From Hemiscyllium ocellatum (taxonomy: Eukaryota), in contig NW_026867492.1 of NCBI RefSeq assembly GCF_020745735.1, positions 124,001 through 188,000 of the forward strand: 64,000 nucleotides of DNA, given 5' to 3'. Below the pieces are notes generated by a model, which saw only the letters and a program-made list of their open reading frames with translations, was not told the origin of the DNA and did not search any database. The position numbers and the translations under genes were made by a program. Every line of letters begins with the position of its first letter. Positions within the stretch are counted from its first letter, which is position 1. Below are positions 6,871 through 61,100 of the stretch, one piece after another.

Positions 6871-6994
6871 TTTTCTTATATATTATAAAGCATAAGTTAA
6901 TGAAGGACAGCCAAAACAAACTGCTATGGGAAGGTCATGCCCAACTAACTTGATTTGCTTGTAGTTATAAATGTTGTTTTTAAAATCTTCTTCA

Positions 6995-24909: not shown

Positions 24910-25542
24910 TCAATCCCCCTGCGATGGCACGTGAACTCGCTGGTGCCTCCGCAGTTGGGAGGAGTAGGTGAAGCCCTTCCTGCACTGAGAGCAGATGAAC
25001 AGCCTCTCCCTGGTGTGGATCCACTGGTGCCTCAGCAGGATGGAGGAATTGCGAAAGGCCTTCCCACACTCGGGGCAGCTGAAGGGCCTCTCCCCGGTGT
25101 GGATCCGCTGGTGGGCCAGCAGGTGGGAGGAATAGCTGAAGGCCTTCCTGCACTGAGAGCAGGTAAAGGGACTCTCCCCGGTGTGGATCCGGTGGTGCCT
25201 CATTAGGGAGGACATGTCGGTAAAGGCCTACCCGCACTCGTGGCAGCTGAAGGGCCTCTCCCCGGAGTGGACGTGCCGGTGGCTCTGCAGGTTGGGGGAA
25301 TACCTGAAGGCCTTCCCGCACTCGGGGCAGCTGAAGGGCTTTTCCCCCGTGTGGCCCTGCTGGTGGGCCAGCAAGTGGGAGGAATGTCTGAAGGCCTTCC
25401 CGCAGTTGGAGCAGGGGAATGGCCTCTCCCCGGTGTGAGTGCGCCGATGAGTCTCCAGGGCAGATGGGACACGGAAGCATTTTCCGCAGTGACCATACTT
25501 CCACGGTTTCTCCACAGGGTGGGATTCCTCAGGTTTCTCCAT
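24910..25542 (-). pseudogene. C2H2 zinc-finger gene ZNF-D, 7 fingers, with in-frame TAG in finger 4
   Basis: MEKPEESHPVEKPWKY... The TAG at 25228-25230 (CHECG*AF) replaces AAG. The same frame continues as ORF 24910-25215 to HVPSQGD-TGA. Finger 1 has C>Y. Confidence 0.87.
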
Positions 25543-33521: not shown

Positions 33522-34150
33522 TGTAACGAAAACTTGTCCTTCAGAATTTAGACTAAAATGTAATGTTGAATTATAGAACACATTTGCTCCACACTAGACA
33601 ATAGACAGGCAGGGAGGGTAAGACAATTAAGAACGTTTGACATCAGTGAATTTGTATAAACAGGATATTGAGTGATCACATTCATGGCTGTTCCTTTGTG
33701 AAATGAATAAGTGTTTGATTCTGACCTCAAAACGAAACTTGGTATCAATTACTTCTCTCCCAAATTATTGCCCTTCACTGTTATCTGTGTTGTTCAGAAC
33801 ATGCAGTGCTTTTGTAAAATAAAATTCATATAAAGAAAGCTTGTTTGCGACAGCACCATCTTTGTAAAAAACTTGTATATAAAGATAGTACACAGAGTAG
33901 CCCGCCAGGGCTCTTGGAAGAAGAGTGATTGCTACTCTCCTGGGTTAATAGAATCCAGTTAGCTTGTCTTATAAGTATCGGTGTTATGTTGTAACGGTGA
34001 TGGTATTAATGAAGGGGATAATTTAAAATTAAACTAAACTGTCTGTAAGAGTTTTATTTTTATTCCAGACTTCTAAAGAGTACGATCTCCAGGATGAACC
34101 AAGATAGGCTGACAGGTCTGAGTCCACAAGGGACTCCTTGGGCTGTCTCA
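33522..34150 (+). repeat. ERV 5' LTR (about 630 bp)
   Basis: TGTAAC...GCTGTCTCA. The first about 220 bp align to 39597-39875 and the rest to about 40655-40955. Contains TATAAA and ATTAAA. Confidence 0.8.
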
Positions 34151-34153
34151 ATT

Positions 34154-34171
34154 TGGCGCTGCAAGCAGGTT
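34154..34171 (+). promoter_or_regulatory. Primer-binding site, tRNA-Ser-like
   Basis: TGGCGCTGCAAGCAGGTT lies 3 nt after the LTR. It matches about 15/18 to the complement of the vertebrate tRNA-Ser(CGA) 3' end as recalled (TGGCGCTGTGAGCAGGAT). Confidence 0.75.
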
Positions 34172-34899
34172 TCCAACAAGAGCTACATTTGAGTGAAACT
34201 GGAAAAGAGGAGTTCCATCTAAGGGTTGGACTCGCGACCAATGGACCCACAAGGTAAAATTGTACCTTGATTACTCTGTCTACATCTGTGTTGTGTTTCC
34301 CCCATTTCACTCTCGATACCCTGACGGAGCCCTAAATGAGATCATTTAAATAGGACTAAAAATAGAAATTGTCAGGATTTTACAATGTTGAGAATGTTTT
34401 GCAGAAATCATTAGTCTTGTTGTTCATTGTCGGGTTGTTGATTAGTGAAAGTTTTAAGTTGAGATTATCTTCTCTGTTGTATCTGTTCAGCTTGGCTTGT
34501 CTTGCTTTGCTGTTTTGTCTTGTTTGTTAGTCATGATTTTGTTCTGTTTGGGTGTTCTTCGTTTATGAAATATAGAGGGTGGCTGCTGCTTTTGTCATGT
34601 ATAAAATAAAAAGCTGGCCAGTGATACAATTCTTGTATGCTTGGTTAAGCAACTATGTGCCACATCCAGGATTTATGAGACACCTGGAATGTGAGTGCCT
34701 AATTCCTCTTAAAATGTTCATGTGTATGTATGAGTGAGCACGCGAGTGAGACAGACAGAGTCAGCACTGATTCCCTGCAGCTTGCAGAAAGTTTAATCCT
34801 TTGAGATTTGGTTTGGATGCACATTTGCTTGTTGACAAATGAATGTTTGTGTTTTGTGGGATTGGAGCCCCTGTAGATCAGTAGTTTTGTGAAGATTTA

Positions 34900-37039
34900 A
34901 AGGATGAGCGTGCCCCTAAATAAGACGTAGATGACATTTGTCTTAACAGAAATAACAAGTCTGTATCCTTAATTATGAGAAACAATTGAGAATATCAGCT
35001 GCAGCTGCTCAACAGAATAAGGATTGGTCTCTAGGAGGCACACATGATTTAACTGTATTCACTAAAATTGAACAAGGGGTTTGGAAAAAAAAGGGAAGTA
35101 AGCAGAAAGAAGTCTTTACCAGAATGGAAAAGGGTAGCTTGGGAGAAAAATGGGAAAAATCCATGCAACCATCATGGAGACAAACTGTATTAAAAGGGGA
35201 GTTACTTCATTAACTGAGGAAGGATCTGAACTAAATTGGACAGAACTAAAACATAAATGTGAAGCACATGATTTAGAAGCAGAATTGGAATAGGCAAGGG
35301 AGAAAATTTTTTTTCAAAAAAAGCAAAGATTCAGAATCTACGTTGAAACGTCAAGGGCACCAATTAAAAAGGAAACTGGTGAATAAACAACAGACTGCAA
35401 TTGCAGCTGCGCAGGACGAAGCTGACAAGGCCTGTTCTTTATACCCCAACCTCCCCTCTTCCAGAGGCCCATTACTGAAGAATCCTGATCCATTTGTGGA
35501 TGGTGGATGGGATACTGACTCGAAGGAGGAAATATTTTATGCCCCTCATCCTGTCAGCTGACAACCTCCGGTTCCCTGCCTGAACTCTCCGCCCTTACTC
35601 TGATGACGAATGTGCCAAGGCTCATGACCTTCCCCCCAGCTGTTCTGCTGAATAAAAATTCAGCTTACCACAAACCTGGTGCCTACTGTACTAGGAGTCA
35701 ATTAAAATTAAAACCTGGAGGAAACATTGAAGAGACTGCTTTTGATTTCCACTGCCCCTAAACTAAATTTGCAATCAAAGTCTCAGGACCTTAATATTGG
35801 TCCTTGCACTCACCCTGATGTGGGAGGGCAAAAAAGAAATTTCCTGAATAGAAGAGGTTCCTGACCCACAGGCTCTGAATCTAGGACAAGCCCAATTTAT
35901 GGATCTTTATCAACCATGGAAACCTCATGACTCCCAAGCATTATCAAGCAATATTGTGGGCGGCACGGTGGCACAGTGGTTAGCACTGCTGCCTCACAGC
36001 GCCTGTAGACCTGGGTTCAATTCCCGACTCAGGCGACTGACTGTGTGGAGTTTGCACGTTCTCCCCGTGTCTGCGTGGGTTTCCTCCGGGTGCTCCGGTT
36101 TCCTCCCACAGTCCAAAGATGTGCGGGTCAGGTGAATTGGCCAAGCTAAAATTGCCCGTAGTGTTAGGTAAGGGGTAAATGTAGGGGTATGGGTGGGTTG
36201 CGCTTCGGCGGGTCGGTGTGGACTTGTTGGGCCGAAGGGCCTGTTTCCACACTGTAAGTCTAATCTAATCTAAGGCTGCAGATTATGGAAAGAATCCTAA
36301 GGGATCTGTTAATTACATTAATAGGACTAAGACCATTCATAATGCTGCCTTCCAAGGCCTAATTCACCTCAATGCAGCCTTTCGCTGCGAGTTCGGAGAA
36401 ATTTTACATGGTAATAATCATACCCAGCTTGTAGTCCGGCGTCCGGCCAAAACTATCATTGGATTATCCTGTCTCCACCAAGCAGTGTGTCGTGCAGTTG
36501 ATGTGGGTAAAGTCTTATCATGTAAACCCAGCTCGGGCGAAGAGGCTGAGGAGTTCCTTACCCGTTTTAAGGAATAATATGGCGCTTCCTCTGGTGACGC
36601 TAACTACCTACAAGGGTGATCATCCCAATTTAATGCCATATGTCTGACTGTCTTACCTGATCAGGTACAGAAAGCTATTAAAACCCACAACATCCACGAG
36701 CAAGATGCTGAGGTTGCACAGGACAGTAGAAATGGTACTGTGTATTCACAACATCCCAATGGACTATGCGGTGGTCCTATTGTCCTTCCCCAACAGTCCA
36801 TGATGCCCCTATACACCCCCTCATTACTCTTCACTGCCTCCCCCACCCCCTAGGGTCCCCCAACAACTACACCTTTGTTTCAATTGCAATCAACCAGGAC
36901 ATTGGTCCAAGAACTGCTCTTTCCATAGCAATCCCTGGTTCATCACCGGAGTAAAAACAACAGACAATCTCCTGGTCTCCCTCCCCAATGACCTCAGCAG
37001 GTGGCCCCTTTTACTGCACAAAACCCTTTTCAAAACTGA
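34900..37039 (+). pseudogene. ERV gag remnant
   Basis: LYPNLP motif (about 35440), YQPWK capsid-start-like motif, zinc knuckle CFNCNQPGHWSKNC (36876-36917), ending NPFQN-TGA (37037-37039). Many stops and frameshifts. Confidence 0.75.
35958..36273 (+). mobile_element. Full-length, young HE1-like V-SINE inserted in gag
   Basis: A box TGGCACAGTGG, B box GGTTCAATTCC, V-domain CTGTGTGGAGTTTGCACGTTCTCCCCGTGTCTGCGTGGGTTTCCTCCGGG, CR1-like 3' end and (TCTAA)3 tail. Confidence 0.92.
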
Positions 37040-39157
37040 CTCCCGGATATAGAGCAACTTCCCGCTTTGAATTTTCCCATACTTACCGCTAGCCCAGAGG
37101 ACGGACCTATGCTAATTCTCAACCGTAATGGCCACGATATTGAATTCATGTTTGACACAGGAGCCACTGTTTCATCACTTCCCATCCATCTTGCTAATGC
37201 TTTTGATTTTCAAATCTCGATGATGAAATCCTGCAATGTTTTGATGGTTCCTCTAATAAACATGCATACGCTGTCCCTCTGACAGTGGTGTGGAAAAATT
37301 GTGTCATGCTCCCTTTTTGCTTTGTTGTTACTAATGGATTACGTATCCCTCTACTTGCTAGAGATCTCGTCTGTACTCTAAATATTACTATTGAATGTCA
37401 TGATGGTATCCTGATTCAGGATCCACCTCATTTTGTTCAATGCATCAATACCAAACCAAAGCCTCCTCAATAGTGGTCATTTGATTTGGATCCTTACGCT
37501 TTTGATCCTATTTTATATAACGTCCCTCGCCCCCACATTACTTTAGCTTATGACTCATCTGGGAATGATCTCAGGCTTGAACACATGTTATAATCCCTTA
37601 CTGGGCACTACTCAGCATGCTTGGGTGATTGGTGATATCAGGTCACCAGCTGGTGGTGTTTTTTTCGTGTCAGTTTCTCCTCATAGCGGGAAAACTGGCC
37701 CTCTCATTTTCCCCCGTGTCACCACTCATTTGAACCCAGAACACAAAGCCCAAGATGTAGGTTTTGACGCTAAGACTCTTTTTGACCATGCTGATCAAAC
37801 TTGCCATGAAATTCAGCTGCTCACTCAAGGATCAATCCGATTTTATGTACAGCCTCAGTCGATCCATGGCAGCCTTCATCATCATCATGCCTACCCTCGC
37901 CCGCAGGACGCAGTATATCCTGGAGTGTGGGTGGACTCCAAAACACAAGTGGGCCTTGCTAAGGTCCCAACCATCATTGTTCTGGCCAAAGCTAATTCTG
38001 TCCTCCTGTCTATATCTCAATACCCCCTGAAACCAGAAGGTGAAGCTGGCATTCAACCTGTCATTGATTCATTTCTACAGCAAGGCCTTCTAGTCCCATG
38101 CCATTCTTCTGTCCATACACCTATCTTTCCAATCCCGAAACCAGGATGTCATGAATGTCGTTCATGACCTTCGTGAAGTAAATAAAATCATTGAGGCTCA
38201 CTATCCTCCAGTTGCCAATCCTGCTACTGTCCTCAGCCAAGTTCCAGTTGATACCAAGATCTTCACTGTCATTGACCTCCAGCATGCATTCTTTTGTCTT
38301 CCTTTGCATCCAAATAACCCAATACATTTTTGCTTCCTTTTAACGGCCACCAATATACGTGGACTTGCCTACCTCAAGGGTTTATTCACTCGCCCACACT
38401 CTTTTCAGAGACTCTTCATGCCCAGTTTGAATTTCCTGGAGACGCTACCCTAGTTCAATACATCGATGATCTTCTCGCTAGCCCTGACAAAGTGTCCAAT
38501 CACATTGACTCCACTACCTTTCTCAACCATCCACATCAATGTGGCTATATTGTACTCCCCAGCAAAGTTAAGACTAATCAGAAAGAAGTTAAGTTCTTAA
38601 TGAGCCTTAACTGTATGAACTCACCCCAAAACAACTACAAGTCTTACAGAGCTTAAAACTACCATCTCTTCAGCACCACACTGGGCCGACATTTGTATGA
38701 CTGCCACTTTCATCTTTATGTTGCCATCCTTAATACCTGTGCTACAGCTGTTCTCACCCAGCAACATGGCTCCCCTTGGCACCCTAATGCCTGTTATTCC
38801 ACTAAGCTTGACCCTGTTGCTCAAGGTATGCCTTCCTGCACCCAGATTCTCTCTGCCATCCATACTCTAGTAGTGGCTGCCTCTAATATAACTTTACGTC
38901 AAAATGTAGAAGTCTGTACCTCGCATTCTGCAGTATCCTCGCTGATTTCTAAACATACTCAGCACTCCGCTATGGTTCGTATCAGTCGCTATGAGATCTC
39001 ATTACTTCGGAATCCATTTCTCTCCTTTAAATACTGCTCTAACATTAACCCCTCGACATGCCTGCAGGAAGAACTGCTTGAACTGCCTGATCCTCCCCAT
39101 GATTGTGTTCTCATACATGAACTTGTTACTAAACCATGTTCTGATCTTACGGACGAT
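37040..39157 (+). pseudogene. ERV pro-pol remnant (protease, 2H-phosphoesterase-like insert, RT, connection domain); RNase H and integrase missing
   Basis: EFMFDTGATVS, PLLARDL, PHITLAY, QYPLKPE, TPIFPIPKPG, LPQGFIHSP, QYIDDLL (YIDD 38459-38470), AVLTQQHG, YSTKLDPVAQGMPSC, HDC...PCSDLTD. Confidence 0.88.
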
Positions 39158-39520
39158 ACAGATGTGATCAACAAAACAGGTCAAGATGCAGGGAAGATAC
39201 CTGCCCAACTGTCGTCTGATTCATGTGGATGGAAGTTTACTTGCTGACTATGATCGCTGTGTGGATGGATCGTGTGGGATTGACTGATAATCCTTGATCT
39301 CATCCTAGGAATATACACTGTCGTCCGCTTATGCGTGAGATGGACTGTGCATTGTTTTTCACCGAAGCCAAAGAGGAATCTGGTTAATTGACCCTTGTCT
39401 ACCCCTCTAACTCCGTGCCCGCACTTCCAGCTGAAATCCTGTATCTTTCAGACTCTGCTCGTCTGGACGATGACCTGGCAGAGGAGGCACTTGACTTATT
39501 TGAAAATACAAATTGACTGG
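39158..39520 (+). pseudogene. Probable env TM C-terminal remnant
   Basis: Trp-rich stretch followed by hydrophobic LIILDLILGIYTVVRLCV, located just before the PPT AAAAGGAGGGAA (39566-39577). Confidence 0.45.
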
Positions 39521-39577
39521 ATGGACTAATTATAGTTATAAGCCAAGTAGTTGTCATGAAATAACAAAAGGAGGGAA

Positions 39578-40955
39578 TAAAAAAGTCTATAGCCATAAAA
39601 CTTGACTTTAAACATTTAAACTAAAATGTAATGTTGAATTATAGAGCACATTTGCTGCACACTATAAAATAGACAGACAGGGAGGCTTGGTAAAAGGGGA
39701 GAACTCAAGGTATGCAGAAGATAACCAAGTGATAACAGAATACCCTAAGACAATTAAGAACATTTGCCTTAACAGTGAATCTGTGTAAATAGGACACAGA
39801 GTGATAACATTCAGGCTGTTCCCTTGTGAAATTAATGACAGTGTTTGATTCTGACCCCGAAACAAAACTCGGTACTATCAAAGGCCTTGTAATTGACAGT
39901 CAGGAACTGTTAATTATAATGGATTCTTATTATCCTTTGCAAGCTAGGCAAACAGAGGGAAAACACCTTTACTGTTACAACTCCCTGACTTGAGAGTTCA
40001 AAAGGACAAGAGAGAGAGAAACCATTATAGCACTGGGGCTCCTGAAGCCATTAAAACATTACCTCTTCGTGCTTACCTGCTTTGGATTGAACGTAATTGC
40101 ATTTTTGAGACTTTATGATGGTATTGAGTAGCCATTGCCGGTTATTAAATATGAACTCTGTAAAAGGTAACATTGATGAAGCTTTAACTTACTTGCTGTT
40201 CTGGTAGACCACTCTACAGACCTTTCAGACTGCCCCACTGTCAATTCCAACTAATCAGATCTTATGTCTTATTTGAATCACAACCCTGAAAAGAAAGCAT
40301 GTTTAATTCAAACAGTAATGAATCAGTTTAAATGCAACCTTTTGGTAACATCTCAGCCTCAGGTACAGTATGATTCTGGCGCAATGTGTCAGCAAGCCAT
40401 TTTATGGTCAAAAGTTTGCCCTCCTGCTAAGAAGCCATTTTGGAAACAGTTGTATCTGACATGTGACCTGTGCAAGGTTCGGAACTCTCCAATTAGCTCA
40501 GATTGGTACCTCTTCATGATAGGAGTTTATCTCGCTAGCAGGCACCTAACTTGGCTGGGTATGTTTTTCCCACCTGATGAATGGCTTAGGGCCTGTGGGA
40601 GTGATTAGTCAAGCGTACAGAGACCTGTCAATTGACTTTTCTTCCTTACGTATTAAGAACATGCAATGTTTTTGTAAATCTTTGTGTAAAGGAAACCACT
40701 TTGTATCAGTACATCAGAGTAGCCTGCCAGGGTACTTGAAGAGTTGGTCCCCTACTCTCCTAGGTTACTATAGCCTAGCTAGTTTAGCTTATCGGTATCA
40801 GTGGAGCTGTTGGTAAGTAAAGGGGATAACTAAAATTAAACTAAACAGTCTGTAAGAGGTTTTTTTTATTCCAGACTCTCAAAGAGTACAATCTCCAGGA
40901 CGAATCGTGAGAGGTTACAGGTCTGACTCCACAAGGGATTCCCTGGGCTGTCTCA
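39578..40955 (+). repeat. ERV 3' LTR (about 1.38 kb)
   Basis: Follows the PPT. Both ends are homologous to the 5' LTR, and it ends CCACAAGGGATTCCCTGGGCTGTCTCA. Confidence 0.75.
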
Positions 40956-40969
40956 AATCCCTACTTTAA

Positions 40970-41845: not shown

Positions 41846-43586
41846 GCATTTGGAGTCATAGAGATGCACAGCATGGAAACAGACCCTTCAGTCTAACCCG
41901 TCCATACCAACCTGATATCCCAACCCAATCTAGAGCCACCTGCCAGCACCCTCCAAATCCTTCCTATTCATATACCCATCTAAATGCCTCCTAAATGTTG
42001 CAATTGTACTAGCCTTCACCACTTCCTCTGGCAGTTCATTCAATAAACGTACCATCCTCTGCGTGAAAACGTTGTCCTGTAGGTCTCTTTTATATTTTTC
42101 CCCTCTCACCCTAAACCTATGCCCTCTCGTTCTGGATTCCCCAACTCCTGGGAAAAGACTTTGTCTATTTATCCTATTCATGCCCCTCATAATTTTGTAA
42201 ACCTCTGTAAGGTCACCCCTCAGCTTCCGACGCTCCAGGGAAAACAGCCCCAGCCTGTTCAGCCTCTCCCTGTAGCTCAGATCCTCCAACCCTGGCATCA
42301 TCCTTGTAAATCTTTTCTGAACCCGTTCAAGTTTCACAACATCTTTCCGATAGGAAGGAGACCAGAATTGCATGCAGTATTCCAACAGTGGCCTAACCAG
42401 TGTCCTGTACAGTTGCAACATGACCTTCCAACTCCTGTACTCAATACTCTGACCAATAAAAGAAAGCATACCAAATGCCTTCTTCACTATCCTCTCTACC
42501 TGTGACTCCATTTTCAAGGAGCTATGAACCTGCACTCCAAGGTCTCTTTTTTCAGCAACACTCCCTAGGACCTTACCATGAAGTATATAAGTCCTGCTAA
42601 GATTTGCTTTCCCAAAATGCAGCACCTCGCATTTATCTGAATTAAACTCCATCTGCCACTTCTCAGCCCATTGGCCCATCTGGTCCAGATCCTGTTGTAA
42701 TCAGAGGTAACCCTCTTCGGTGTCCAGTACACCTCCAATTTTGGTGTCATCTGCAAACTTACTAACTGTACCTCTTATGCTTGAATCCAAATCATTTATG
42801 TATTTGACAAAAAGTAGAGGACCCAGCACTGATCCTTGTGGCACTCCACTGGTCACAGACCTCCAGTCTGAAAAACAACCCTTCACCACCACCTTCTACC
42901 TTTGAGCCAGTTCTGTATTCAAATGGCTAGTTCTCCCTGTGTTCCATGAGATCTAAGCTTGCTAATCAGTCTCCCATGGGAACCTTGTCGAACACCTTAC
43001 AGAAGTCCATATAGATCAGATCTTCTGCTCTGCCCTCATCAATCATCTTTGTTACTACTTCAAAAAAAACTCAATCAAGTTTGTGAGACATGATTTCCCA
43101 CGCACAAAGCCATGTTGACTATCCCGAATCAGTCCTTGCTTTCCAAATACATGCACATCCTGTCGCTCAGGATTCCCTCCAACAACTTACCCACCACCGA
43201 GGACAGGCTCACTGGTCTATAGTTCCCTGGCTTGTCTTTACCGCCCTTCTTAAACAGTGGCACCACGTTTCTCAACCTCCAGTCTTCCGGCAAATGATGA
43301 TACAAATATCTCAGCAAGAGGCCCAGCAATCACTTCTCTAGCTTCCCACAGAATTCTCGGGTACACCTGATCAGGTCTTGGGGATTTATCCACTTTTAAA
43401 CATTTCAAGACATCCAGCACTTCCCCCTCCGTAATCTGTACATTTTGCAAGATGTCACCATCTATTTCCCTACAGTCTATATCTTCCATATCCTTTCCAC
43501 AGTAAATGCTGATGCAAAATATTCATTTAGTATCTCCCCACTTTCTATGGCTCCATACAAAGGCCGCCTTGCTGATCTTTGAGGGG

Positions 43587-43770
43587 AAAGTGAGGACTGC
43601 AGATGCTGGAGATCAGAGCTGAAAAATGTGTTGCTGGAAAAGCGCAGCAGGTCAGGCAGCATCCAAGGAGCAGGAGAATCGATTTTTTGGGCATAAGCCC
43701 GATTCCTGAAGAAGGGCTTATGCCCGAAACGTCGAATTTCCTGCTCCTTGGATGCTGCCTGACCTGCTGT
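43587..43770. mobile_element. Fold-back Penelope-derived insertion with 11-bp TSD inside the CR1
   Basis: TCTTTGAGGGG flanks it at 43576-43586 and 43771-43781. The arms (about 43646-43700 and 43714-43769) are inverted copies. Confidence 0.88.
43701..43738 (+). ncRNA. Minimal type-I hammerhead ribozyme motif (Penelope-associated)
   Basis: GAUUC-CUGAAGA-A-GGGC(UUAU)GCCC-GAAA-C-GUC-GAAUU. Complete catalytic core, 4-bp stem II, 5-bp stem I, and palindromic ACGU in place of stem III. Confidence 0.72.
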
Positions 43771-44067
43771 TCTTTGAGGGGCCCGATTCTCGCCCTAGTT
43801 ACCCTTTTGTCCTTAACATATTTGTAAAAACCCTTTGGATTCTCCTTAATTCTATTTGCCAACGCTGTTTCATGTCCCCTTTTTGCCCTCCTGCTTTCCC
43901 TCTTAAGTATACTCCTACTTTCTTTGTACTCTTCTAACGATTCACTCAATCTATCCTGTCTATACCTGACATATGCTTCCTTCTTTTTCTGAACCAGACC
44001 CTCTATTTCTTTACTCATCCAGCATTTCCTATATCTACCAGCCTTCCCTTTCACCCTGACAGGAATA

Positions 44068-44650
44068 TTTATATAAATGATGAAGAGTAGTGGACCCAGC
44101 ACCCATCCTTGTGGTATACTGCTGGTCACAGGCCTCCAGTCTGAAAAGCAACTCTCCACCACCACTCTCTGTCTTCCTATCTGTGAGCTGGTACTGTATC
44201 CAAATGGCTAGTTCTCCCTGTATTCCACGATATCTAACCTTGTGAACGTGTCTCCCTTGGGGAATCTTGTCAAACACCTTACTAAAGTCTATGTAGTACC
44301 CTGGCACGTAGGCCATCAAGCCCAGGGGACTTGTCTGCCCTCAATCCTAATAGTTTGCTGTGTACCTTTTCCCTCTCAATGTTATTGTTTAAGTTCTATC
44401 CTTTCTATCAGCTGACTTGCCCGTTCCAATAGGAATGGTACTATTGTCCTCCAGCTTGAAAACTGAGGAAAAGGATTGACTTAGCATCTCTGCCATTTCA
44501 GTGTTCCTCCTATTAACTCATCGGTTTCATCTTCCAAGGGGCTTGAGTAACTCTGTTCCCTTCAGCATGCCAACAGAAGCTTTTGCTATTCTTTTTGATA
44601 TTTTGCGCTAGGTTTCTTTCGTAATTTACTTTTCATTTTTTTAGTATCCC
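44068..44650 (-). mobile_element. Additional CR1 ORF2 fragments
   Basis: YIDFSKVFDKIP..., SDWRPVTSSIPQGWVLGPLLFIIYIN, and an older fragment beyond 44300. Confidence 0.7.
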
Positions 44651-44774: not shown

Positions 44775-45142
44775 GCTGGCGAGGGGAGCAGGGAACACAT
44801 TTGCCCCGCCCCCATTGCCTCCGATTGGTTGGATGCTACGTCGAACCGCGCCCACGACACGCGGGGTGACGTCAGGATCTGGTCATCCAGCCCCGTGAGT
44901 TGGCGCATGTGCAGTGTAGGTCATGTAGTGGGACAAAGACAGTGTTACTGAGTGTGGGAGAGGAATGGCGCCGGCGGCTGAAGGAACAAGAACAGAAACC
45001 GCTGGAAAAGCTGAGCAGCCCTGGCTGCATGTGTCAAGAGACTCCGAGGAAACGTTACGTGTCCAGTGATTCTCTTTCAGAACAGAAACAGGTTTCGGAG
45101 AGGTCGCCAGGCCTGAGCGCCCGGGGAGAGGGGACAGTGAGT
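44775..45142 (+). promoter_or_regulatory. CpG promoter and probable first exon (candidate upstream promoter for ZNF-A copy 2)
   Basis: GC box GCCCCGCCCC, ATTGG, full CRE TGACGTCA (44867-44874), NRF1-like GCGCATGTGC, YY1-like AATGGCGCC, and donor GTGAGT at 45137. Confidence 0.6.
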
Positions 45143-45144
45143 AC

Positions 45145-46742
45145 CTACTTCGACACTGTCCTATCCCCCCCCCCCCCCCAGTCCAGGAACTCCCCACATA
45201 CGTTCAGGACACCACCCACGCCCTCCACCTCCTCCAAGACTTCCGTTTCCCCAGCCCCCAACGTCTCATCTTCACCATGAATATCCAAACCCTCTACACC
45301 TCCATCCGCCATGGCCAGGACCTCGAAGCCCTCTGTTTCTTCCTCTCCCGACGTCCCCAACAGTACCCTTCCACCGACACTCTCATTCGTCTGGCCAAAC
45401 TGGTCCTCATCCTTAACAATTTCTCCTTCGAATACTCCCACTTCCTCCAGACCAAAGGGACAGCCATGGGCACCCGTATGGGCCCAGCTATGCCTGTCTC
45501 TTTGTTGGCTACGTAGAACAGTCCATTTTCCATAATTAAACCGGCACTCTCCCCACCTCTTCCTCCGCTACATTCATGACTGCATTGGCGCCATCTCGTG
45601 CTCCCGCGAGGAGGTTGAGCAAGCTTCACCGACACATTCCACCCTGACCTTAAATTTACCTGGACCATCTGACACCTCCCTCCCCTTCCTGGACCTCTCC
45701 ATCTCCATTAATAACAACCGACTTGACAGTAGCGTTTTATAAACCCACCGACTCCCACAGCTACCTGGACTGTACCTCTTCCCACCCTACCTCCTGCAAA
45801 AATGCCATCCCGTATTCCCAATTCCTTCGCCTCTGCCATATCTGCTCCCAGGAGGACCAGTTCCACCACAGAACACACCAGATGGCCTCCTCCTTCAGAT
45901 ACCGCAATTTCCCTTCCCACGTGGTTAAAGATGCCCTCCATCTTAAGCTTCGCATAAACCAAATCATCCGCCGACATTTCCGCCACCTCCAAATAGACCC
46001 CACCACCAGGGATATATTTCCCTCCCTATCCCTTTCCACCTTCCACAAAGACCGTTCCCTCTGTAACTAGCTGGTCAGGTCCATGCCCCCCAGAACCCAC
46101 CCTCCCATCCTGGCACCTTCCCCTGCCACCTGCGCCCTCACCTCCATCCAAGGCCCTAAAAGTGCCTTCCACACCCATCAAAGTTTTACCTGCACATCCA
46201 CCAATATCATTTATTCTATCCGTTGCTCCAGATGCGGTCTCCTGTACATTGGGGCGACTGGACGCCTCCTAGCAGAGCGCTTTAGGGAACATCTCTGGGA
46301 CACCCGCAGCAATCAACCACACCGCCCTGTGGCCCAACATTTCAACTCCGCCTCGCACTCTGCGAGGACATGGTGGTCCTGGGCCTCCTTCGCCGCCGCT
46401 CCCTCACCACCAGATGCCTGGAGGAAGAATGCCTCATATTCCACCTCGGAACACTTCAACAATTTCCTCATTTCCCCTTCCCCCACCTCACCCCAGTTCC
46501 AAACTTCCAGCTTAGCACTGTCCCCATGACCTGTCCTACCTACCTACCTATCTTCTTTTCCATCTATCCACTCCACCACTCCTCTCTCTCCCCCCATACC
46601 TATCACCTTCCTCCCACCCCCACTCACCTATTGTACTCTATGCTATTTTCTCCCCACCCCCACCCTACTCTCATTTATCTCTCCACCCTTCAGGATCTCT
46701 GCCTGTATTCCTGATGAAGGGCTTTTGCCCAAAATGTCGAAA
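45145..46742 (+). mobile_element. Penelope-like retroelement (RT + GIY-YIG endonuclease), 5'-truncated and frameshifted
   Basis: IFTMNIQTLYTSI, NNFSF..FLQTKGTAMGTRMGP, FLRYIHD, PFLDL, YKPTDSHSYL..SSHP..AIPYSQFLRL, IIYSIRCSRCGLLYIGATGR..ERFREH. Terminal hammerhead-like motif at 46711-46738. Confidence 0.9.
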
Positions 46743-53809: not shown

Positions 53810-54459
53810 GTTCAACCTGAATTTACACTTCTTTTGCTTCCCAAAATTAGACTTGCTCACTCTCAGCAATATCCTGAAAGATATTAACTTTCACGTGGTG
53901 TTATCCAAAATTCGAAGATGTCAGTCCTGACGTTTTTTGAGAGTGGGATGCTTTCAATTTTGTGGAACAGCAAAAGAAAAAAATGTTCTGCAGAAAGTGG
54001 AGTAGCTTGTTCTGAATTTCTACCCTGGACTGACCGTGATGACTTTTGTAATCTCTTTTTCCAGAGTATTTGAAGATCTGAAGACTGAAGTTTAAAAATC
54101 AACAGATGAAGGGCCTATGCCTGAATCGTCGATTCTCCTGCTGTTTGGATGCTGCCTGACCTGCTGTGCTGTTCCAGCACCGCACTTTTCAACTCCTCTC
54201 CAGCCTCTGCAGTCCCCACTTTCACATCAATGTCTGACAGTCACTCAATCCATCGGGACCTCAACGATTTTCAACTATGATTCTTTGAGAAGGAGCAAAA
54301 CATTTTGGTTCCTGTTTCAGACAATTTTCAGCATCAGCGGGACTGGATGAGAGTCTCTACTGTTACAGCGCACTTTGTGTAAAGCCTGAAACAGTTATAC
54401 GGCCAGGAAAGAGGAATTTACTGTGGACAGGGGCCATACACGAGGCTGTAGCTGCAGCC
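53810..54459 (+). other. Inferred 5' UTR exons/intron of ZNF-A, shared with ZNF-C and ZNF-D
   Basis: Acceptor TCATTGCAG|G (53810) is homologous to minus-strand acceptors at 18060 and 26294. Last-exon acceptor TTTTCCAG|AGTATTTG (54065) is homologous to 25952. Confidence 0.55.
54104..54222 (+). mobile_element. Penelope-derived repeat with decayed hammerhead in the ZNF-A 5' UTR
   Basis: (C)AGATGA-A-GGGC-CTAT-GCCT-GAAT-CGTC...GATGCTGCCTGACCTGCTG. Orthologous at 25793-25913 and 17621-17721. Confidence 0.8.
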
Positions 54460-55635
54460 ATGGTTAAACCAGAGGACTCCCACACCGTGGAGAAACCGTG
54501 GAAGTGTTGCGACTGCGGGAGAGGCTTCCATGCCCCATCTGTCCTGGAGATTCATCGGCGAAGTCACACCGGGGAGAGGCCATTCTCCTGCCCCGAGTGC
54601 GGAAAAGGCTTTACCTGCTCCTCCCACCTGCTGGACCACCGCCGAGTCCACACTGGGGAGAAGCCATTCTCCTGCCCTGAGTGTGGGAAGGGCTTCACCT
54701 ACTCCTCCCACCTGCTGGCCCACCAGCGCGTCCACGCTGGGGAAAGGCCCTTCCCCTGCTCTGAGTGTGGGAAGGCCTTCAGCAAATCCTCGGACCTGCT
54801 GAAGCACCAACGAGTCCACAGAGGGGAGAGGCCATTCAGCTGCCCTGAGTGCGGGAAGGCCTTCAGTGATTCCTCGATTCTGCTGAGGCACCAGTGGGTC
54901 CACATCGGGAAAAGGCCGTTCTCGTGCCCTGAGTGCAGGAAGGGCTTCACCCGCTCTTCTGCTCTGCTGACCCATCTGCGGGTCCACACGGGTGAAAAGC
55001 CCTTTAGCTGCCCCGAGTGCAGGATGGCCTTCAGCAGGTCTTCCCACCTGCTGAGGCATCAGCGAGTCCACACTGGGGAGAGGCCGTACTCCTGCCTCCA
55101 GTGCGGAAAGTGCTTTACCCAGCCCTCCAACCTGCTGACCCACCAGCGGATCCACACCCGCGAGAGACCGTTCTCCTGCTCCGAGTGCGGGAAGGGTTTT
55201 GCTGTTTCCTCTAACCTCGTGGCCCACCGGCGGGTCCACACGGGGGAGAGGCCATTCAGCTGCCCCGAGTGCGGGAAGGCCTTCAGCAATTCCTCTGCCC
55301 TGCTTAGGCACCAGCGCGTTCACACCGGAGAGAAGCCGTTCTCCTGCCCAGAGTGCGGGAAGGGGTTTACCCGCTCCTCCACACTGCTGACCCACCAGCG
55401 GGTCCACACAGGGGAGAGGCCATTCAGCTGCCCCGAGTGCAGGAAGGCCTTCAGCGATTCCTCCGCTCTGCTGAAGCACCAGCGAGTCCACACCGGGGAG
55501 AGGCCCTTCAGCTGCCCTGAGTGCGGAAAGAGGTTTACATTTTCCCGCAACTTGCGGAAGCACCAGCGGGGGCACCAGCGCTCACAACAATCAGATTCCA
55601 CCGCTGACACTGCCATGAGTAACCCCCAGGACTGA
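54460..55635 (+). CDS. C2H2 zinc-finger protein, 13 fingers (ZNF-A, copy 2)
   Basis: 391-aa translation identical to 225-1400. Confidence 0.92.
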   Translation: MVKPEDSHTVEKPWKCCDCGRGFHAPSVLEIHRRSHTGERPFSCPECGKGFTCSSHLLDHRRVHTGEKPFSCPECGKGFTYSSHLLAHQRVHAGERPFPCSECGKAFSKSSDLLKHQRVHRGERPFSCPECGKAFSDSSILLRHQWVHIGKRPFSCPECRKGFTRSSALLTHLRVHTGEKPFSCPECRMAFSRSSHLLRHQRVHTGERPYSCLQCGKCFTQPSNLLTHQRIHTRERPFSCSECGKGFAVSSNLVAHRRVHTGERPFSCPECGKAFSNSSALLRHQRVHTGEKPFSCPECGKGFTRSSTLLTHQRVHTGERPFSCPECRKAFSDSSALLKHQRVHTGERPFSCPECGKRFTFSRNLRKHQRGHQRSQQSDSTADTAMSNPQD

Positions 55636-57624
55636 TTCTCCTGACAGTGGGTGCAGTGGGAGAGTTGGTGCACTGTATTTGTTTTCCGTTGGACTGCAAC
55701 CCCACGGTGGCTCAGAGGTGGCATGGTGACTGAGTGATTAGCACTGTTGCCTCATGGCACCAGGAACCAAGGATCAATTCCACCCTTGGGGCGACTGTCT
55801 GTGTGGAGTTTGTGGAGGGTAGGAGAATGGATGAGATAAGAAACCGCTGCCTGCCTTGAGACAAGTCTCCCGGAGAGAACTTGCTGACTGATTGATTGTC
55901 TGATCTCCTGATCCTCACAGTGCCCTATTGCCCTCAGTTAACTGGAGGAGGTCCACACAGATGTACCGAAGCCCCTCTTTGGACTGTGGAAGGAAACCTG
56001 TGCAGACAGGGAAAGCATGCAAACTCCACATAGACAGTTACCGGAGGCTGGAATTAAACTTGGGTCCCTTATGCTGTGAGGTAGCAATGCTAAGCAGTGT
56101 GCTACCCCAATATGTTATAAAATTTGAATAAACCTACTAAGTTGGAAATGTGTCCATGCCAAGAACTTACTGTAAATGTTTGGAAGCAAAAGTCCATCGA
56201 AATTGTCTTTGTGACGGATCTAAAACTTACTTCATTAATGATTGAAAATACTTTGACCTCTGGAACTGTCTGCCAGAGAGTGTGTTGGAGTCAGATTCAA
56301 TTACGGTATTCAAAATAGAGGTGGATCATTCAACTGAAAAGGAAAGCAATTGTAGTGTTCAGTGAAGAATAGTACAAGGTACTGTAGTGGATGTCAGAAT
56401 GAATTTTCTGATTGGGGCTGTTCACTTGCTCCTGTTACCATTTCAGGTTGCTGACTTTTCGTTAGCATCCTGCACATGTTGGGATTTTTTTCTCCTTTCT
56501 AGGATCTATTTGAGTGACTCAGTGACAAATCTAGTTTATGAATTGTTCCTATGATATCTCATGAGAGGGTTTATGATATTCAGTGCTGTATAAATTGTTG
56601 TGGGTCACAATGTGTCCAAGTGAGGAAAAACAAACTGTTCATCTTAAATATTTGTTTTTAAACAATGGAAATAAACAATGGAAAACACACACAACTTGCT
56701 GTGTAGGAATCATCATAAATAGGAATGGGAGTAAGTAATTGACTGTCGAGATGCTCTGTCTTTCATTTATCTAAATTCTCTTTCCTGTACTTGTTTTTTC
56801 GTGACTTCATCTGCTGAAGTGACTACACTCCAAAAGCTTGTGATTTCAACATAAGAACTAGGAGCAAGAGTCGGCCTTCCGGCCCTTCGAGTCTGCTTCA
56901 CCACTCAATAAAATCATGACTCATCTTTTCGTGGACTATGTATGCTCCACTTACCTGCACTTTCACCATATCCCTTAATTCTTTTATTTTTTCAAAAACG
57001 TATCTACTGCTTCTAGTGATTGCTGAAGTAATGTCAAATACTTCCCTGGGCAAGGAATTCCATAGATGAACAACCCTCTGCGTGAAGAAGTTTCTTCTCA
57101 GTTCAGTTTTAAACCTGCTTCCTCTAATCTAGAGGCCATGCGCTCTTATCCTAGTCTCACCTACCAGTCCAACATTCTATTTCTATTTCTGTAAGATCAT
57201 CCAAACAACCTGTTGGACTATAACCTGGTGTCATGTGACTTATGACTAAAAAATGTGTTACCACGCATCCTCATAGCAGTGGGATTTCAGGGCTCGAAGA
57301 TTGGGACACTACCACTGCATCATAAAATAAAACCCTCTGCAGCAAATAGGTCCTCTTCTATTGAATGAATGGGGAGAGGTTTCTTCTCAACATGGGGTAC
57401 AAATATTATACCCTCAGAGCCCATTACACTGAATTGAGCCCTCTTCGGTTGAATGAATGGATGTGGAGGTGCCATAGTTGAAAACGTTAAAAATCACATC
57501 TTGCCCCTAAATATGTGACACTACCGCTATAGCCCCAGAGCCCGTTGCAGTAAATTGGGTCAGCTGCTGTTGAATGAATGAACGGGAATGAAAAGGGCGG
57601 ATTCACTGAGCCGCTTGTGACATT

Positions 57625-58115
57625 CCCCACCAATCCCAAAGCTTGTGGTCGGTACCGACCAATCGGAGAGAGAGATTGCAGAGGGTGGGACAACATGACA
57701 CACAAACACGGCCGCTATTGGTCAGGTGGAGACAGGTGCGCTCTGATTGGAGGAGGGGCGGATGACGCGCGTCACAGGAGGAGACGATGGAAAGAAGAAG
57801 AAAAACAAAAATGGCGGCGCGAGGCTGCGGTTTCTGACGGAGGGAGGGGGGCAGACAGGCATCGTTTACCTCAGAAAATACCTTTAAAATACATTTCACA
57901 TTAAAGTCGGAACTTTTCAAACAAGAGGTGACGGTTACCAGGTGAACGGGAAAACAAATTAAAACTGTCGGCGGTGGAGGAGAGAGAGCCGGCGCCCGCG
58001 GCTTCTTCGGCGGCGGCCGGAGCCCAGGAGCTCAACAACCCCCCGGAGCTGGAGGAAGGTCCGAGCTCCAAGAAGCGGGGGGTCCGGCTGGAGGCTGGAT
58101 TTACTCAAGGCTTGT
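57625..58115 (+). promoter_or_regulatory. CpG-rich promoter (copy of 3390-3880)
   Basis: Same CCAAT, GC-box and YY1 (57808-57818) motifs. Confidence 0.65.
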
Positions 58116-61100
58116 ATCTATTAACTTATTTAAATGGTACCTACTGTATGGGGGTATGGTTTACATTAAAACCGGAGGATCATGTCAGAGTGTTTGTTTA
58201 TATTGAGCAGTTGTAGTTGGTAAAATACACTCCCTGGAGGAACACCTTCTATGATGCTGCATTTCTTACCTTCTGCCCTTCCCCCATTTGTTATCTCTCA
58301 TCTCAATTTTACATTTTCGGTCAAATTTAATTTCACATTAATCAGCCTTGGTATTCATTGTGTATTATTAATTAATCTGTTGGATTATTGTAAGACAAAA
58401 TTAATGGTGTAATTTCGTTTATGATGTCTGAGTTTGACATTGAATGTGCAGGTGTGAATACCAGTACGGTGTAAAAATAAATCAAGAGCTTGTCCTTTTT
58501 TAACAAAAAAAGGAGTTTAATGATATTATTGGCACTGTCTCCTTGAGCATGATGATTCAAATCTGAGCAACAAACCATTTCATGCAGTCACCCAGTTTAA
58601 TTCAAGTCGAAGAAAATAATTCTGGCAGGCTAAGATTTATACAACCCAAAATATGATTGATTATCTTGTGTATTCTTACCTTTAAGCCGTAACAGAAGGC
58701 ATTGCGTGGCAGTTTGAGACTGAAACACGGCTGGAAAGAATGTAGATTGATGAGGAAAATCAAATGGCAGAGTCTGAATCTGTCAGTCTGGCTTGATTGC
58801 ATGAGTGGTGGTTCTTCAAAAGCATCTTCCAAGCCATGACCTCAACCACCAAGAACAGAGAAGTGTGAACACAGGATTCCGACTGCAAGATATATCGCAT
58901 TGCTTCTTTGTTATTGACCAAAATGCTGGAACTCACTCCTGAACATTGTTGCAGACCACACCATGTTTGTGAAGCAATTTAAGAGGCAGCTCAGCACCAC
59001 CTTTTCAAGGTCAGTTTGGAAAGAGTTGTTGGCACAGCCAATGATATTCACATCTCATGAAATAGTAAGCAAAGAGCCCAGGGTGTTGGAGGCTGAATGT
59101 TAGCATGGATAGAGGATTGGCTAACTACCACAGTTGTGGTAAGGGGCATGTTCAGGATGGCAACTTGTAACTTGTGGTGTACCACAGGGATCAGCGCTGG
59201 GGTCAACATTATTTACAATATGTATACGAATTACTTGGATAAGTAAAGTGACTGTACTATTGCTAAGTTTGCAGAAGAGACAGTTGATGTGAAAGCAGGT
59301 GGTGAGGATGACATTAGATATCTGGAGAGGGATATAGACAGGTTAAGCAAATGAACGAAAGCTTGGCAGATGGGAAAATGAGGTCATGCAGTTTGTCAGG
59401 AGGTGAAGAACTGAATATTAAATGGAGAAAACTTGAGAGGGATTTGGAATCACATCCACGAATCTCTTCATCCAATTTCAGTAAGTAATAGGGAGGCAAA
59501 TGGGAGTTTGGCCTTTTCAACAGAGTATAAATGTAGAAAGGTTATAGTGAACCTTTGTAAGGCCCTAGTCAGGCCACAAGTGAATACTATGAACAGTTTA
59601 GGACCCTTTTACCTGAGGAAAGATATATTGGCATTGGAGGCAGTCCAGAGATGGTTGACCATGATGATATCAGGGATGGAAAGAATGTCTTATGAGGAGA
59701 ACTGAATAGGTTGGGCCTGTGCTTATTAGAAGTTAGAAGAATTAGAGGTAACCTTATTGTCACGTACAAGATTCTGAGGAGACTTGACAGGCTGGACGTG
59801 GGAAAGTGGGTGAGTCTGGGACCAGAGGAAGTAACCTCCAAATAAGAGATTGCATGTTTAGGACAGATAGGAATTACTCCTGAGGGCAGTAAATCTGTGG
59901 AACTTGATACTAAAAGGGCTGTTGAGCCTGGGTTGTTATGTGCATTCAAGGCTGAGATAGTGTTTGTTTTAATCAGTAAGCGAATTGAGGATTACTGAGG
60001 ATTATGGGACAATGGCAGAAAAGTGGAGTAAATGTTTACCAGAATAATTGTGATCTGAATGAATGGCAGAGTCAACTCAATGGGCTGAATTGAACAGTAA
60101 ATACTAATGAGGAAAAGGATACAACTGGCAATTACAGACCAGTCAATGTTGGGAAGCCTAGAGATTGTAGGGAGTTGGTGGCATTTGGGCATTGTTACTG
60201 GATTTAACATCTGGAGTTTCAAAATGATGCTGCTATGGCCGCGATGCAATTTGAAATCAATTTATGTATCTGGAATATAAAGCTGCTTTGATGATCTTAT
60301 CAATTGTCATAAGTACCGATCTTGTTCACTAATAACCTTGTTTTTAAGGAAGGAAATCTTCAGTCCTTTCCCAGTTTGGTGAATGTGTCACTCTTGATCC
60401 AAAGTCATGTGATTGACTCTTAACTGCCCTCTGAATTGGCACTTGGTTCTTTTAGGAGACAAAGTGTCACATTCCATGAATGAATAAAGAAAAATATTCA
60501 GGACAAGATTGTCACTGTCAGTGAAGGGAAGATTGTGATCTAGTGATACTGGTTAAGTAGCCCAGAGATTTCGGTTTTCTGAGAACAAAAATTAAAATCC
60601 CATCCTGGATGCTAGTGGACTTTATTTTCAATGAATAAAAAGATCAGGAAGTGAGAGTTTGTCTCAGTACTGGCAACAAGGAAACCATTATTGGCTAAGA
60701 CAATGAATTGCAGATGTTGGAGATCAGCAACAATTGCTGGGAAACTGCAGCAGGTCTGGCAGCATCTGTGGAAAGAAAACAATTAATGTTTTGAATCCAG
60801 CCTAATTTTGAAGGACCACCGGACTCAAAACAGTAACACTGTCGTCTCCTCATAGATGCTGCCAGAACTATTGCTTTTGTCCAATCATTACTGATTGTTG
60901 TGAAAGTATTCTTTTCGGGAGGGAAATCTACCATTCACAACCCTACACATGTGTGCGCACGCTCACATCATGTGACTCCAGACCTACTACAATGTGGTTG
61001 ACTCTCAACTAAGTTCTAGCATGTAGCCAATTGCTCGGTCAAAAGGCCATGAAGGATGGTGAGCAAATGTTGGACATGCGAGCAACAATCCCATCCCTCA

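What the first reader, a model, noticed from the sequence alone, without database searches (positions are those of the whole stretch)
37474..37915. Endogenous retrovirus carries a 2H-phosphoesterase (CNPase-like) domain between protease and RT
Seen: after the protease (DTGA...LLARDL) and before RT (VWV..QVGL...QYPL) there are about 145 extra codons. They read WSFDLDPYAFDPILYNVPRPHITLAYDSSG, then after one frameshift ...PLIFPRVTTHLNPEHKAQDVG. PHITL (H at 37534-37536) and P[R]VTT (CGT at 37715-37717, one change from CAT) fit the two Hx[T/S]x motifs of 2H phosphoesterases about 60 residues apart. The second is followed by an A-x-D-h-G tail. Established: 2H enzymes cleave 2',3'-cyclic phosphates or 2-5A (coronavirus NS2 and rotavirus VP3 antagonise RNase L), and a 2H domain has been noted in some fish retroviral polyproteins. 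Inference: this shark ERV lineage encoded an RNA-end-processing or immune-antagonist enzyme within Pol.
Basis: partly seen in the sequence, partly recalled or inferred. Interest (0 to 1): 0.8.

Follow-up and report, generated by a model that had tools for sequence, protein, structure and literature searches.

The report
CNPase-like domain in dead fish retrovirus
A dead retrovirus in what is likely a shark genome carries, between its protease and reverse transcriptase, a broken copy of a domain predicted to fold like the host enzyme CNPase, which likely opened cyclic-phosphate RNA ends; such domains were already reported in fish retroviruses.

Summary
A ~150-codon insert lies between protease and RT of a decayed provirus. 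This copy has a stop, a frame break and Arg in motif 2. The Arg copies appear to come largely from host duplication of one dead insertion; 14 of 15 dispersed copies examined have His there.

An unaltered in-frame sister copy folds confidently (pLDDT 90). Its best match is vertebrate CNPase (Z 13.4), far above the 2-5A enzymes VP3, NS2 and AKAP7 (7.3, 6.6, 5.2) and cGAMP nucleases (6.1, 5.2). The same PR-2H-RT layout occurs in catshark, skate, ray and teleost ERV proteins. The best viral fold matches are walleye retrovirus proteins labelled Env, so the domain seems to occupy two polyproteins.

Most likely job: a virion-borne 2',3'-cyclic phosphodiesterase for RNA ends (inferred, ~55%). RNase L antagonism is unlikely as the general role, because ray-finned fish lost OAS-RNase L yet their retroviruses keep both motifs.

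2H/CNPase domains in fish retroviruses are already in print, and this scan found the same thing five times on other DNA. New member of a known kind; I found no functional test.

The parts
33522..34150 (+). 5' LTR (approximate)
   Evidence: Blocks 33529-33617, 33619-33744 and 33887-34151 repeat at 39597-39685, 39746-39874 and 40708-40956 with 88, 83 and 76% identity; ends TG...CA read from sequence
34154..34169 (+). Primer-binding-site-like TGG-starting sequence just after the 5' LTR
   Evidence: Seen in the window and L088, L089, L092; resemblance to a tRNA-Ser 3' end is recalled, not tested
34956..36950 (+). Decayed gag, with a single CCHC zinc knuckle at about 36876-36920; start is approximate
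   Evidence: zf-CCHC E 2.4e-7; tblastn to skate protein P0034 at 36383-36697, E 7e-13
35954..36270 (.). Interspersed repeat (SINE-like) inserted in gag
   Evidence: Repeated elsewhere in the window; absent at this place in L088 and L092; SINE label is my reading
37106..37443 (+). Retroviral aspartic protease, frameshifted (DTGA at 37154, LLARDL at 37351); FVQC at the end may be a cleavage site with Gln at P2
   Evidence: Gln-aromatic or Gln-Cys motif at the same place in relatives; cleavage inferred
37465..37891 (+). 2H phosphoesterase domain, CNPase branch; broken in this copy by a stop (37471-37473), a frame break shortly after motif 1, and Arg in motif 2
   Evidence: fold from unaltered sister copy L057
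37534..37545 (+). 2H motif 1, HITL
37715..37726 (+). 2H motif 2 position, RVTT here; His in 14 of 15 dispersed copies examined
37919..38600 (+). Reverse transcriptase, several frame breaks
   Evidence: RVT_1 E 2e-9; tblastn pieces in frames 2, 3, 2; relative P0003 matches gammaretroviral RT structures from its residue 271
38681..39154 (+). RT connection / RNase H-like tether; no match to the rest of Pol (RNase H, integrase) follows
   Evidence: RT_RNaseH E 1.6e-9; the P0003 match ends at residue 749 of 1225
39597..40955 (+). 3' LTR (approximate; about 800 bp inside has no counterpart in the 5' LTR)

Best explanation
This is a broken copy of a CNPase-type 2H phosphoesterase encoded between protease and RT of a fish class-I-like retrovirus, and in the living virus it likely worked as a virion-packaged 2',3'-cyclic phosphodiesterase that opens cyclic-phosphate RNA ends. 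Shown: position in Pol, two His motifs kept across shark, ray and teleost relatives, joint descent with RT, and the lesions of this copy. Predicted: the CNPase-like fold. Inferred: (1) it was made as part of Gag-Pro-Pol and so entered particles at RT stoichiometry; (2) the viral protease likely cut it from PR at a Gln-P2 site, while it may have stayed on the RT N-terminus, as only ~10 residues separate the fold from RT's first conserved motif; (3) the two His and two Thr/Ser would hydrolyse 2',3'-cyclic phosphates left by host RNases on tRNA primer, genomic RNA or free 2',3'-cNMPs, giving 2'-phosphate/3'-OH, as CNPase and the Trl1 CPD domain do (established knowledge). The window copy itself makes no protein.
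For: Model of unaltered L057 domain: pLDDT 89.8, five models 88.5-89.8. Among 48,161 PDB representatives the best match is mouse CNPase, Z 13.4, 142 residues aligned, rmsd 3.4; the next is Z 7.3. Second look: CNPases Z 13.2-14.0, goldfish RICH 12.2, fungal RNA kinase 6u05 11.6 (residues 645-832, read as the Trl1 CPD domain), VP3 7.5. Teleost homologue P0015: CNPase Z 16.9, next 8.9. Atlas for P0015: CNPase TM 0.79; features point to tRNA_lig_CPD clusters at 0.94. A teleost profile aligns to the host CNPase exon around motif 2, pairwise E 9e-4; host motif 1 reads HCTT and several teleost viral ones HCTL. 19 of the 31 library hits have both motifs 60-63 apart. 2H and RT trees both separate elasmobranch-type from teleost-type sequences with 100/99-100 support. 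WDSV cleavage sites have Gln at P2 (PMC3185560, passage).
Against: No activity was measured, and 2H folds have switched substrate repeatedly in viruses (PMC11410667, passages). No Pfam CNPase hit for any viral sequence. Profile searches of PDB sequences found no 2H protein for A1 or A2 and RICH only at E 1.2 for A3. Identity to CNPase is 12-14% by structure. In walleye viruses the fold match is to proteins labelled Env, not Gag-Pol, so a role tied physically to RT cannot be general. Most retroviruses replicate without such a domain (established knowledge). The cleavage pattern is untested.
Confidence: 0.55

Rival explanations
1. The domain is a nuclease for a cyclic-dinucleotide immune signal (2'3'-cGAMP) made when reverse-transcribed DNA is sensed, delivered inside the particle or acting at the assembly membrane.
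For: Viral 2H enzymes of avian poxviruses and phages cleave cGAMP (PMC11410667, passages). Placement in Pol in some viruses and apparently in Env in walleye viruses fits a diffusible substrate. That retroviral DNA triggers cGAS, that virions can carry cGAMP and that fish keep cGAS-STING are recalled, not checked here.
Against: Structural scores to Acb1 (Z 6.1) and penguinpox PDE (Z 5.2) are less than half that to CNPase. Pfam Acb1 gives only E 0.18 on one motif.
Confidence: 0.18
2. The domain degrades 2-5A and antagonises RNase L, like coronavirus NS2 and rotavirus VP3.
For: Cartilaginous fish have a coupled OAS-RNase L pair (PMC10400998, passages). This genome has OAS1_C matches at two places. 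VP3 is the second-best fold family (Z 7.3).
Against: OAS-RNase L was lost in the ancestor of ray-finned fish, yet teleost ERV proteins keep both motifs. Known 2',5'-PEs belong to the eukaryotic-viral LigT group (PMC8406329), which scores far lower than CNPase. The RNase L nuclease-domain search here returned 2 exons, both IRE1-like; this is inconclusive, as exon-wise searches can miss a divergent gene.
Confidence: 0.08
3. The domain acts mainly by binding: a mimic or competitor of host CNP, which blocks retroviral particle assembly, or an RNA-binding spacer on RT.
For: Host CNP binds HIV-1 matrix and inhibits particle formation (PMC7471995, table row).
Against: The His/Thr catalytic positions are the most conserved columns (H173, T175 invariant, H236 nearly so in A3), which points to catalysis. 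The viral domain lacks the rest of CNP.
Confidence: 0.1
4. The domain processes ADP-ribose-1'',2''-cyclic phosphate or a related NAD-derived metabolite, alongside the macro domains reported in other fish ERVs.
For: Fish ERVs are reported to carry CNPase or macro domains (PMC4977317, passage). 2H enzymes are linked to RNA-repair and ADPr networks (PMC9503650, passage).
Against: Arabidopsis Appr>p CPDase scores Z 6.5 against 13.4 for CNPase. No macro domain was detected in the 13 proviral frames scanned with Pfam.
Confidence: 0.09

Closest known systems
CNPase-encoding epsilon-like ERVs of ray-finned fish (Basta et al. 2009, not held; known from PMC4977317 passage) and 2H domains of fish retroviruses and WDSV (Mazumder et al. 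2002, not held; known from PMC9503650 passage)
   Same: A 2H/CNPase-like domain inside a fish retroviral genome. Teleost ERV proteins found here (killifish, denticle herring, cichlid) have the same PR-2H-RT order.
   Different: Elasmobranch-type domains are shorter: motif spacing 60-61 against 62-63, and 43-50 against 83-91 residues from the protease RD motif to His 1. They form their own clade. I could not read where those papers place the domain.
WEHV-1 Q9WHI8 and WDSV A4GTG3 (BFVD models), and unnamed Q2VF30_1
   Same: Top three viral fold matches, E 3e-8, 6e-7 and 5e-5. Q2VF30_1 matches the teleost PR+2H model over 307 columns at 31% identity.
   Different: The two walleye proteins are labelled Envelope polyprotein. 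The WDSV Gag-Pol piece A4GTG2_1 matched only 110 columns, protease-sized. The position inside Env was not shown by the tool.
Vertebrate CNPase / fish RICH catalytic domain (PF05881; 2xmi, 1woj, 2i3e)
   Same: Whole-domain structural match (142 residues, Z 12-14), two HxT/S motifs, helix with Gly after motif 2.
   Different: 12-14% identity, no Pfam hit, ~142 against ~215 residues, His spacing 60 against 79 (H230/H309 in PDB titles), embedded in Pol. The host CNPase exon is a long, unplaced branch, so no recent capture from this host is shown.
Fungal tRNA ligase Trl1 cyclic phosphodiesterase (PF08302; 6u05 read as such)
   Same: Top Foldseek PDB hit, E 2.3e-5, Z 11.6. It sits in a multi-enzyme RNA end-healing protein (established knowledge).
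   Different: No ligase or kinase partner in the provirus.
2',5'-phosphoesterases NS2, NS4b, VP3, AKAP7; cGAMP nucleases Acb1 and avipox PDE
   Same: Same superfamily; virus-encoded.
   Different: Z 5.2-7.5 against 13.4-14.0 for CNPase; a different branch of the superfamily.

Membership tests
2H phosphoesterase superfamily | Two Hx[T/S]x motifs in one chain (virus family) | tested here: met
   L057 natural frame HVTL/HVTI 60 apart; 19 of 31 library hits carry a motif pair
2H phosphoesterase superfamily | Both catalytic His intact and in frame in the window's own copy | tested here: not met
   Arg at 37715, frame break and stop
2H phosphoesterase superfamily | 2H fold | tested here: met
   Predicted model pLDDT 89.8; the 13 best VIA matches are all 2H proteins
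2H phosphoesterase superfamily | Phosphoesterase activity | not testable with these tools
   Needs an enzyme assay
CNPase / Trl1-CPD branch | Closest structural neighbours are CNPase, RICH and the Trl1 CPD | tested here: met
   Z 13.4-14.0, 12.2 and 11.6 against 7.5 or less for all others; teleost homologue Z 16.9; Atlas TM 0.79
Vertebrate CNPase proper (PF05881) | Profile match to PF05881 | tested here: not met
   No PF05881 hit among 3, 17 and 29 proteins scanned; the host gene is found by the same model
Vertebrate CNPase proper (PF05881) | Free-standing protein with N-terminal kinase-like domain (AAA_33 in 93% of the Atlas cluster) | tested here: not met
   The domain is flanked by protease and RT
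2',5'-PE subfamily (NS2, NS4b, VP3, AKAP7) | Structural grouping with the eukaryotic-viral LigT group | tested here: not met
   Listed but far lower: VP3 7.3, NS2 6.6, AKAP18 5.2
2',5'-PE subfamily (NS2, NS4b, VP3, AKAP7) | Host has OAS-RNase L | tested here: inconclusive
   OAS1_C present; RNase L not detected, only IRE1-like exons; pathway reported present in cartilaginous and lost in ray-finned fish
2',5'-PE subfamily (NS2, NS4b, VP3, AKAP7) | Cleaves 2-5A | not testable with these tools
   Needs an assay
cGAMP-cleaving 2H enzymes (Acb1, avipox PDE) | Structural or profile grouping | tested here: not met
   Z 6.1 and 5.2; Pfam Acb1 E 0.18
Fish retroviral 2H domains | Homology to the domain in walleye and teleost retroviruses | tested here: met
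   Profile hits to teleost ERV proteins at E 1e-6 to 9e-4; top BFVD fold hits WEHV-1 and WDSV
Class I (gamma/epsilon-like) ERV | LTR-gag(single CCHC)-pro-pol order; RT closest to gammaretroviral RT | tested here: met
   relative P0003 matches p80 RT structures at E 5e-136, foamy virus 2e-53, HIV 1e-18
Genus Epsilonretrovirus | RT phylogeny with WDSV/WEHV | not tested
   No reference sequences were available from the tools

The most novel reading that the evidence does not exclude
Fish retroviruses have kept, since before the shark/bony-fish viral lineages split, a mobile CNPase-branch enzyme that rides in Pol in some viruses and in Env in others, and it destroys a cyclic-nucleotide immune signal such as cGAMP: the first retrovirus-encoded second-messenger nuclease, and a new substrate for the CNPase branch.
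Probability: 0.15. Interest if true: 0.8.

Novelty: new member of a known kind. Interest (0 to 1): 0.33.

Why it matters
Retroviral Pol has very few accessory enzymes, and this one is shared by shark, ray and teleost retroviral lineages with its catalytic motifs kept, so it did something useful for a long time. I found no functional test in eight literature searches (open-access library only). A simple substrate panel would show whether retroviruses use RNA end healing or nucleotide-signal destruction, and could bear on what vertebrate CNPase does with RNA. This locus itself is a dead pseudogene and adds only another example.

Tried and rejected
Word-based homologue searches found nothing from the window piece or L057 and only skate copies from P0003; the exhaustive profile search was needed.

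Pfam never gave a significant 2H hit (best 2_5_RNA_ligase2, E 0.038). Profile searches of PDB sequences gave chance hits only. The A2 profile against the host CNPase exon gave E 0.13. The viral-contig scan found 14 pattern matches and no relative. The Atlas feature search on the skate domain scored only 0.76-0.78, a lead.

Two of the 31 library hits (P0013, P0018; many short stretches) were not inspected and may be spurious.

Rejected: that Arg in motif 2 is the family state. It is confined to copies that also share the frame break (8 of 8 tested). Rejected: recent capture of this host's CNPase (long branch, 25% identity to the skate domain). Rejected: chance motifs.

Mazumder 2002, Basta 2009, Holzschu 1995 and Fodor and Vogt 2002 were not held. 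Term searches in PMC8672886 and PMC12690878 found no mention of CNPase or phosphoesterase, and PMC11410667 has no mention of retroviruses. No supplements were read; those of PMC9503650 and PMC11410667 may list retroviral 2H domains. No complex prediction was run, as no binding is claimed.

Full report
Observation. The window holds a decayed provirus from about 33522 to 40955: LTR, gag with one CCHC knuckle (E 2.4e-7), protease, an insert, RT (RVT_1 E 2e-9) and the RT connection region. An intact skate Pol (P0003, 1225 aa) aligns piecewise to 37106-39154 in changing frames and stops at its residue 749, so RNase H and integrase are missing here; no env was recognised. The LTR blocks are 76-88% identical, so the insertion is old. 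There is also a stop at 37471-37473. This copy cannot make the domain.

Is Arg in motif 2 the family state? A DNA search of the own genome (3.98 Gb) gave 48 matches at 40 places, a lower bound. Of the first 30 loci, 20 have Arg, 8 have lost that stretch and 2 have His. All 8 Arg copies tested share the window's frame offset after motif 1. Of 10 copies fetched with long flanks, 4 share host DNA upstream of the 5' LTR at 91-98%, and 3 of these also share the downstream flank. So most Arg copies are host duplicates of one already dead insertion; one Arg copy (L028/L089, 78-86% identical) showed no clear shared flank and stays unresolved. Among 15 dispersed copies at 70-87% identity, 14 have His in motif 2 and one does not cover it; motif 1 has His in 9 of the 15, the rest being decayed or unaligned. 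One dispersed copy (L057) has both motifs in one natural 292-aa frame, HVTL and HVTI 60 residues apart, continuing into RT. More distant ERV groups in the same genome, at 26-37% identity, carry the same insert.

Relatives elsewhere. A profile of 17 natural pieces found 31 proteins at E <= 0.001 among 1.84 billion. I inspected 29; two repetitive ones were left out. 15 of the 29 have a Pfam protease before or an RT/RNase H after the domain, and the others are short fragments. Of 10 looked up, 6 are named: catshark, skate, devil ray, killifish, denticle herring and a cichlid. This is my basis for a cartilaginous-fish host; the host was not identified directly. 19 of the 31 have both motifs, 60-63 residues apart. 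In 100,000 shuffles of the skate domain, 20 gave two such motifs at 55-90. Trees of the domain (21 rows) and of the RT N-terminal part (10 rows) both split elasmobranch-type from teleost-type sequences, with 100/100 and 100/99 support. This fits joint inheritance with Pol, though the trees are unrooted and small. The host's CNPase exon is a very long branch of uncertain place.

Fold. The unaltered L057 domain folds with pLDDT 89.8. Against 48,161 PDB representatives the best match is mouse CNPase (Z 13.4, 142 residues, rmsd 3.4). Then come rotavirus VP3 7.3, drCPDase 7.2, MHV NS2 6.6, archaeal 2'-5' ligase 6.6, Acb1 6.1, AKAP18 5.2 and penguinpox cGAMP PDE 5.2. Foldseek ranks 6u05 (fungal RNA kinase; I read residues 645-832 as the Trl1 CPD domain) and CNPases first; VIA gives them Z 11.6 and 13.2-14.0. 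A teleost homologue gives CNPase Z 16.9 against 8.9 for the next, and the Atlas agrees (CNPase TM 0.79; tRNA_lig_CPD features 0.94). Sequence evidence is weak: no Pfam CNPase hit and a pairwise E of 9e-4 between the teleost profile and the host exon. The domain therefore belongs to the CNPase/Trl1-CPD branch but is not a vertebrate CNPase proper.

Two placements. Among viral models the best matches are WEHV-1 Q9WHI8 (E 3e-8) and WDSV A4GTG3 (6e-7), both labelled Envelope polyprotein, and unnamed Q2VF30_1. With the teleost PR+2H model, Q2VF30_1 matches over 307 columns, the walleye Env proteins over about 172 columns at rmsd 3.1, and the WDSV Gag-Pol piece over only 110. So walleye viruses appear to carry the domain in Env, while the sequences here carry it in Pol. 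The tool did not show where in Env.

Mechanism. Shown: position, motif conservation, joint descent with RT. Predicted: fold. Inferred: translation within Gag-Pro-Pol and packaging with RT. Release from protease is likely at a site with Gln at P2: relatives show Q-Y, Q-F, Q-W or Q-C at the protease end, the window has FVQC, and WDSV sites have Gln at P2 (PMC3185560, passage). The fold ends about 10 residues before RT's first conserved motif, so the domain may stay on RT. By its branch it most likely opens 2',3'-cyclic phosphates on RNA ends or free 2',3'-cNMPs, leaving a 3'-OH (55%).

Rivals. The RNase L reading is weakened by structure and by host range: OAS-RNase L was lost in the ancestor of ray-finned fish but is present in cartilaginous fish (PMC10400998, passages), while teleost viruses keep both motifs. 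This genome has OAS1_C matches; the RNase L search returned only two IRE1-like exons, which is inconclusive. A cGAMP nuclease remains possible (18%), since viral 2H enzymes have gained that activity (PMC11410667, passages) and the Env placement suits a diffusible substrate. A binding role against host CNP, which blocks HIV-1 particle formation (PMC7471995, table row), is less likely given the conserved catalytic residues.

What is known. PMC9503650 (passages) states that 2H domains occur in fish retroviruses and WDSV, citing Mazumder 2002. PMC4977317 (passages) states that epsilon-like ERVs of ray-finned fish sometimes encode CNPase or macro domains, citing Basta 2009. Neither primary paper was held. 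PMC4422223 (first of two parts read) reports epsilon-like ERVs in elephant shark without mentioning this domain in that part. PMC8406329 (passages) defines the 2',5'-PE subfamily. PMC3185748, PMC6307210 and PMC9967133 (passages) added only background. Eight searches showed no functional test; subscription papers and supplements were not seen. Five earlier notes of this scan describe the same domain in at least three other genomes; they agree with my reading, which was set down before that look-up, and they are not independent evidence.

Verdict. A real, conserved CNPase-branch 2H domain in the Pol of a fish retroviral lineage, here in a dead copy. New member of a known kind; interest 0.33, carried by the untested function and the apparent Pol/Env double placement.

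Noticed in passing
window 1-9765 and 54236-64000: The two stretches are 99.99% identical, marking a 54,235-bp tandem unit; a second copy of the provirus lies one unit upstream, 100% identical over 581 bp. A very young duplication or an assembly duplication.
   Followed up: partly
window 246-1254, 8612-8864, 16443-17283 (-), 25017-25437 (-), 54481-55489, 62847-63099: C2H2 zinc-finger arrays: the provirus sits in a zinc-finger gene cluster. Database proteins P0009 and P0034 also join ERV Pol to zinc-finger-like arrays, possibly gene-model fusions in such clusters.
   Followed up: partly
G000 C67:377525-388464 and C104:65602-81721 (L008-L010, L013-L017): Part of the dead provirus, including the 2H region, is repeated in tandem at about 5,178-bp spacing.
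   Followed up: partly
BFVD Q9WHI8, A4GTG3: The walleye retrovirus fold matches are to proteins labelled Envelope, suggesting that the domain sits in a different polyprotein there.
   Followed up: partly
window 34154-34169: Primer-binding-site-like sequence after the 5' LTR, shared by L088, L089 and L092; resembles a tRNA-Ser end by recall, whereas walleye viruses use tRNA-His.
   Followed up: no
window 35954-36270; L085, L086: A similar short repeat sits at a different place in gag in copies L085 and L086 (near window 35110) and is absent in L088 and L092, so insertions continued after the duplications began.
   Followed up: no
window 39875-40707: About 800 bp inside the 3' LTR has no counterpart in the 5' LTR.
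   Followed up: no
G000 C59:18296037-18357854 and C2:58010075-58017411 (L097-L100): A cluster of OAS-like genes and a second OAS-like locus; no RNase L nuclease domain was detected, only two IRE1-like exons.
   Followed up: partly
G000 C110:38517724-38525247 (L095, L096): The host's own CNPase gene, single locus, with motifs HCTT and HITL on two exons.
   Followed up: yes
window 41930-42700 and 43545-44340 (-), 45070-46529 (+): Decayed RT-like frames that look like LINE and other retroelement fragments by eye.
   Followed up: no
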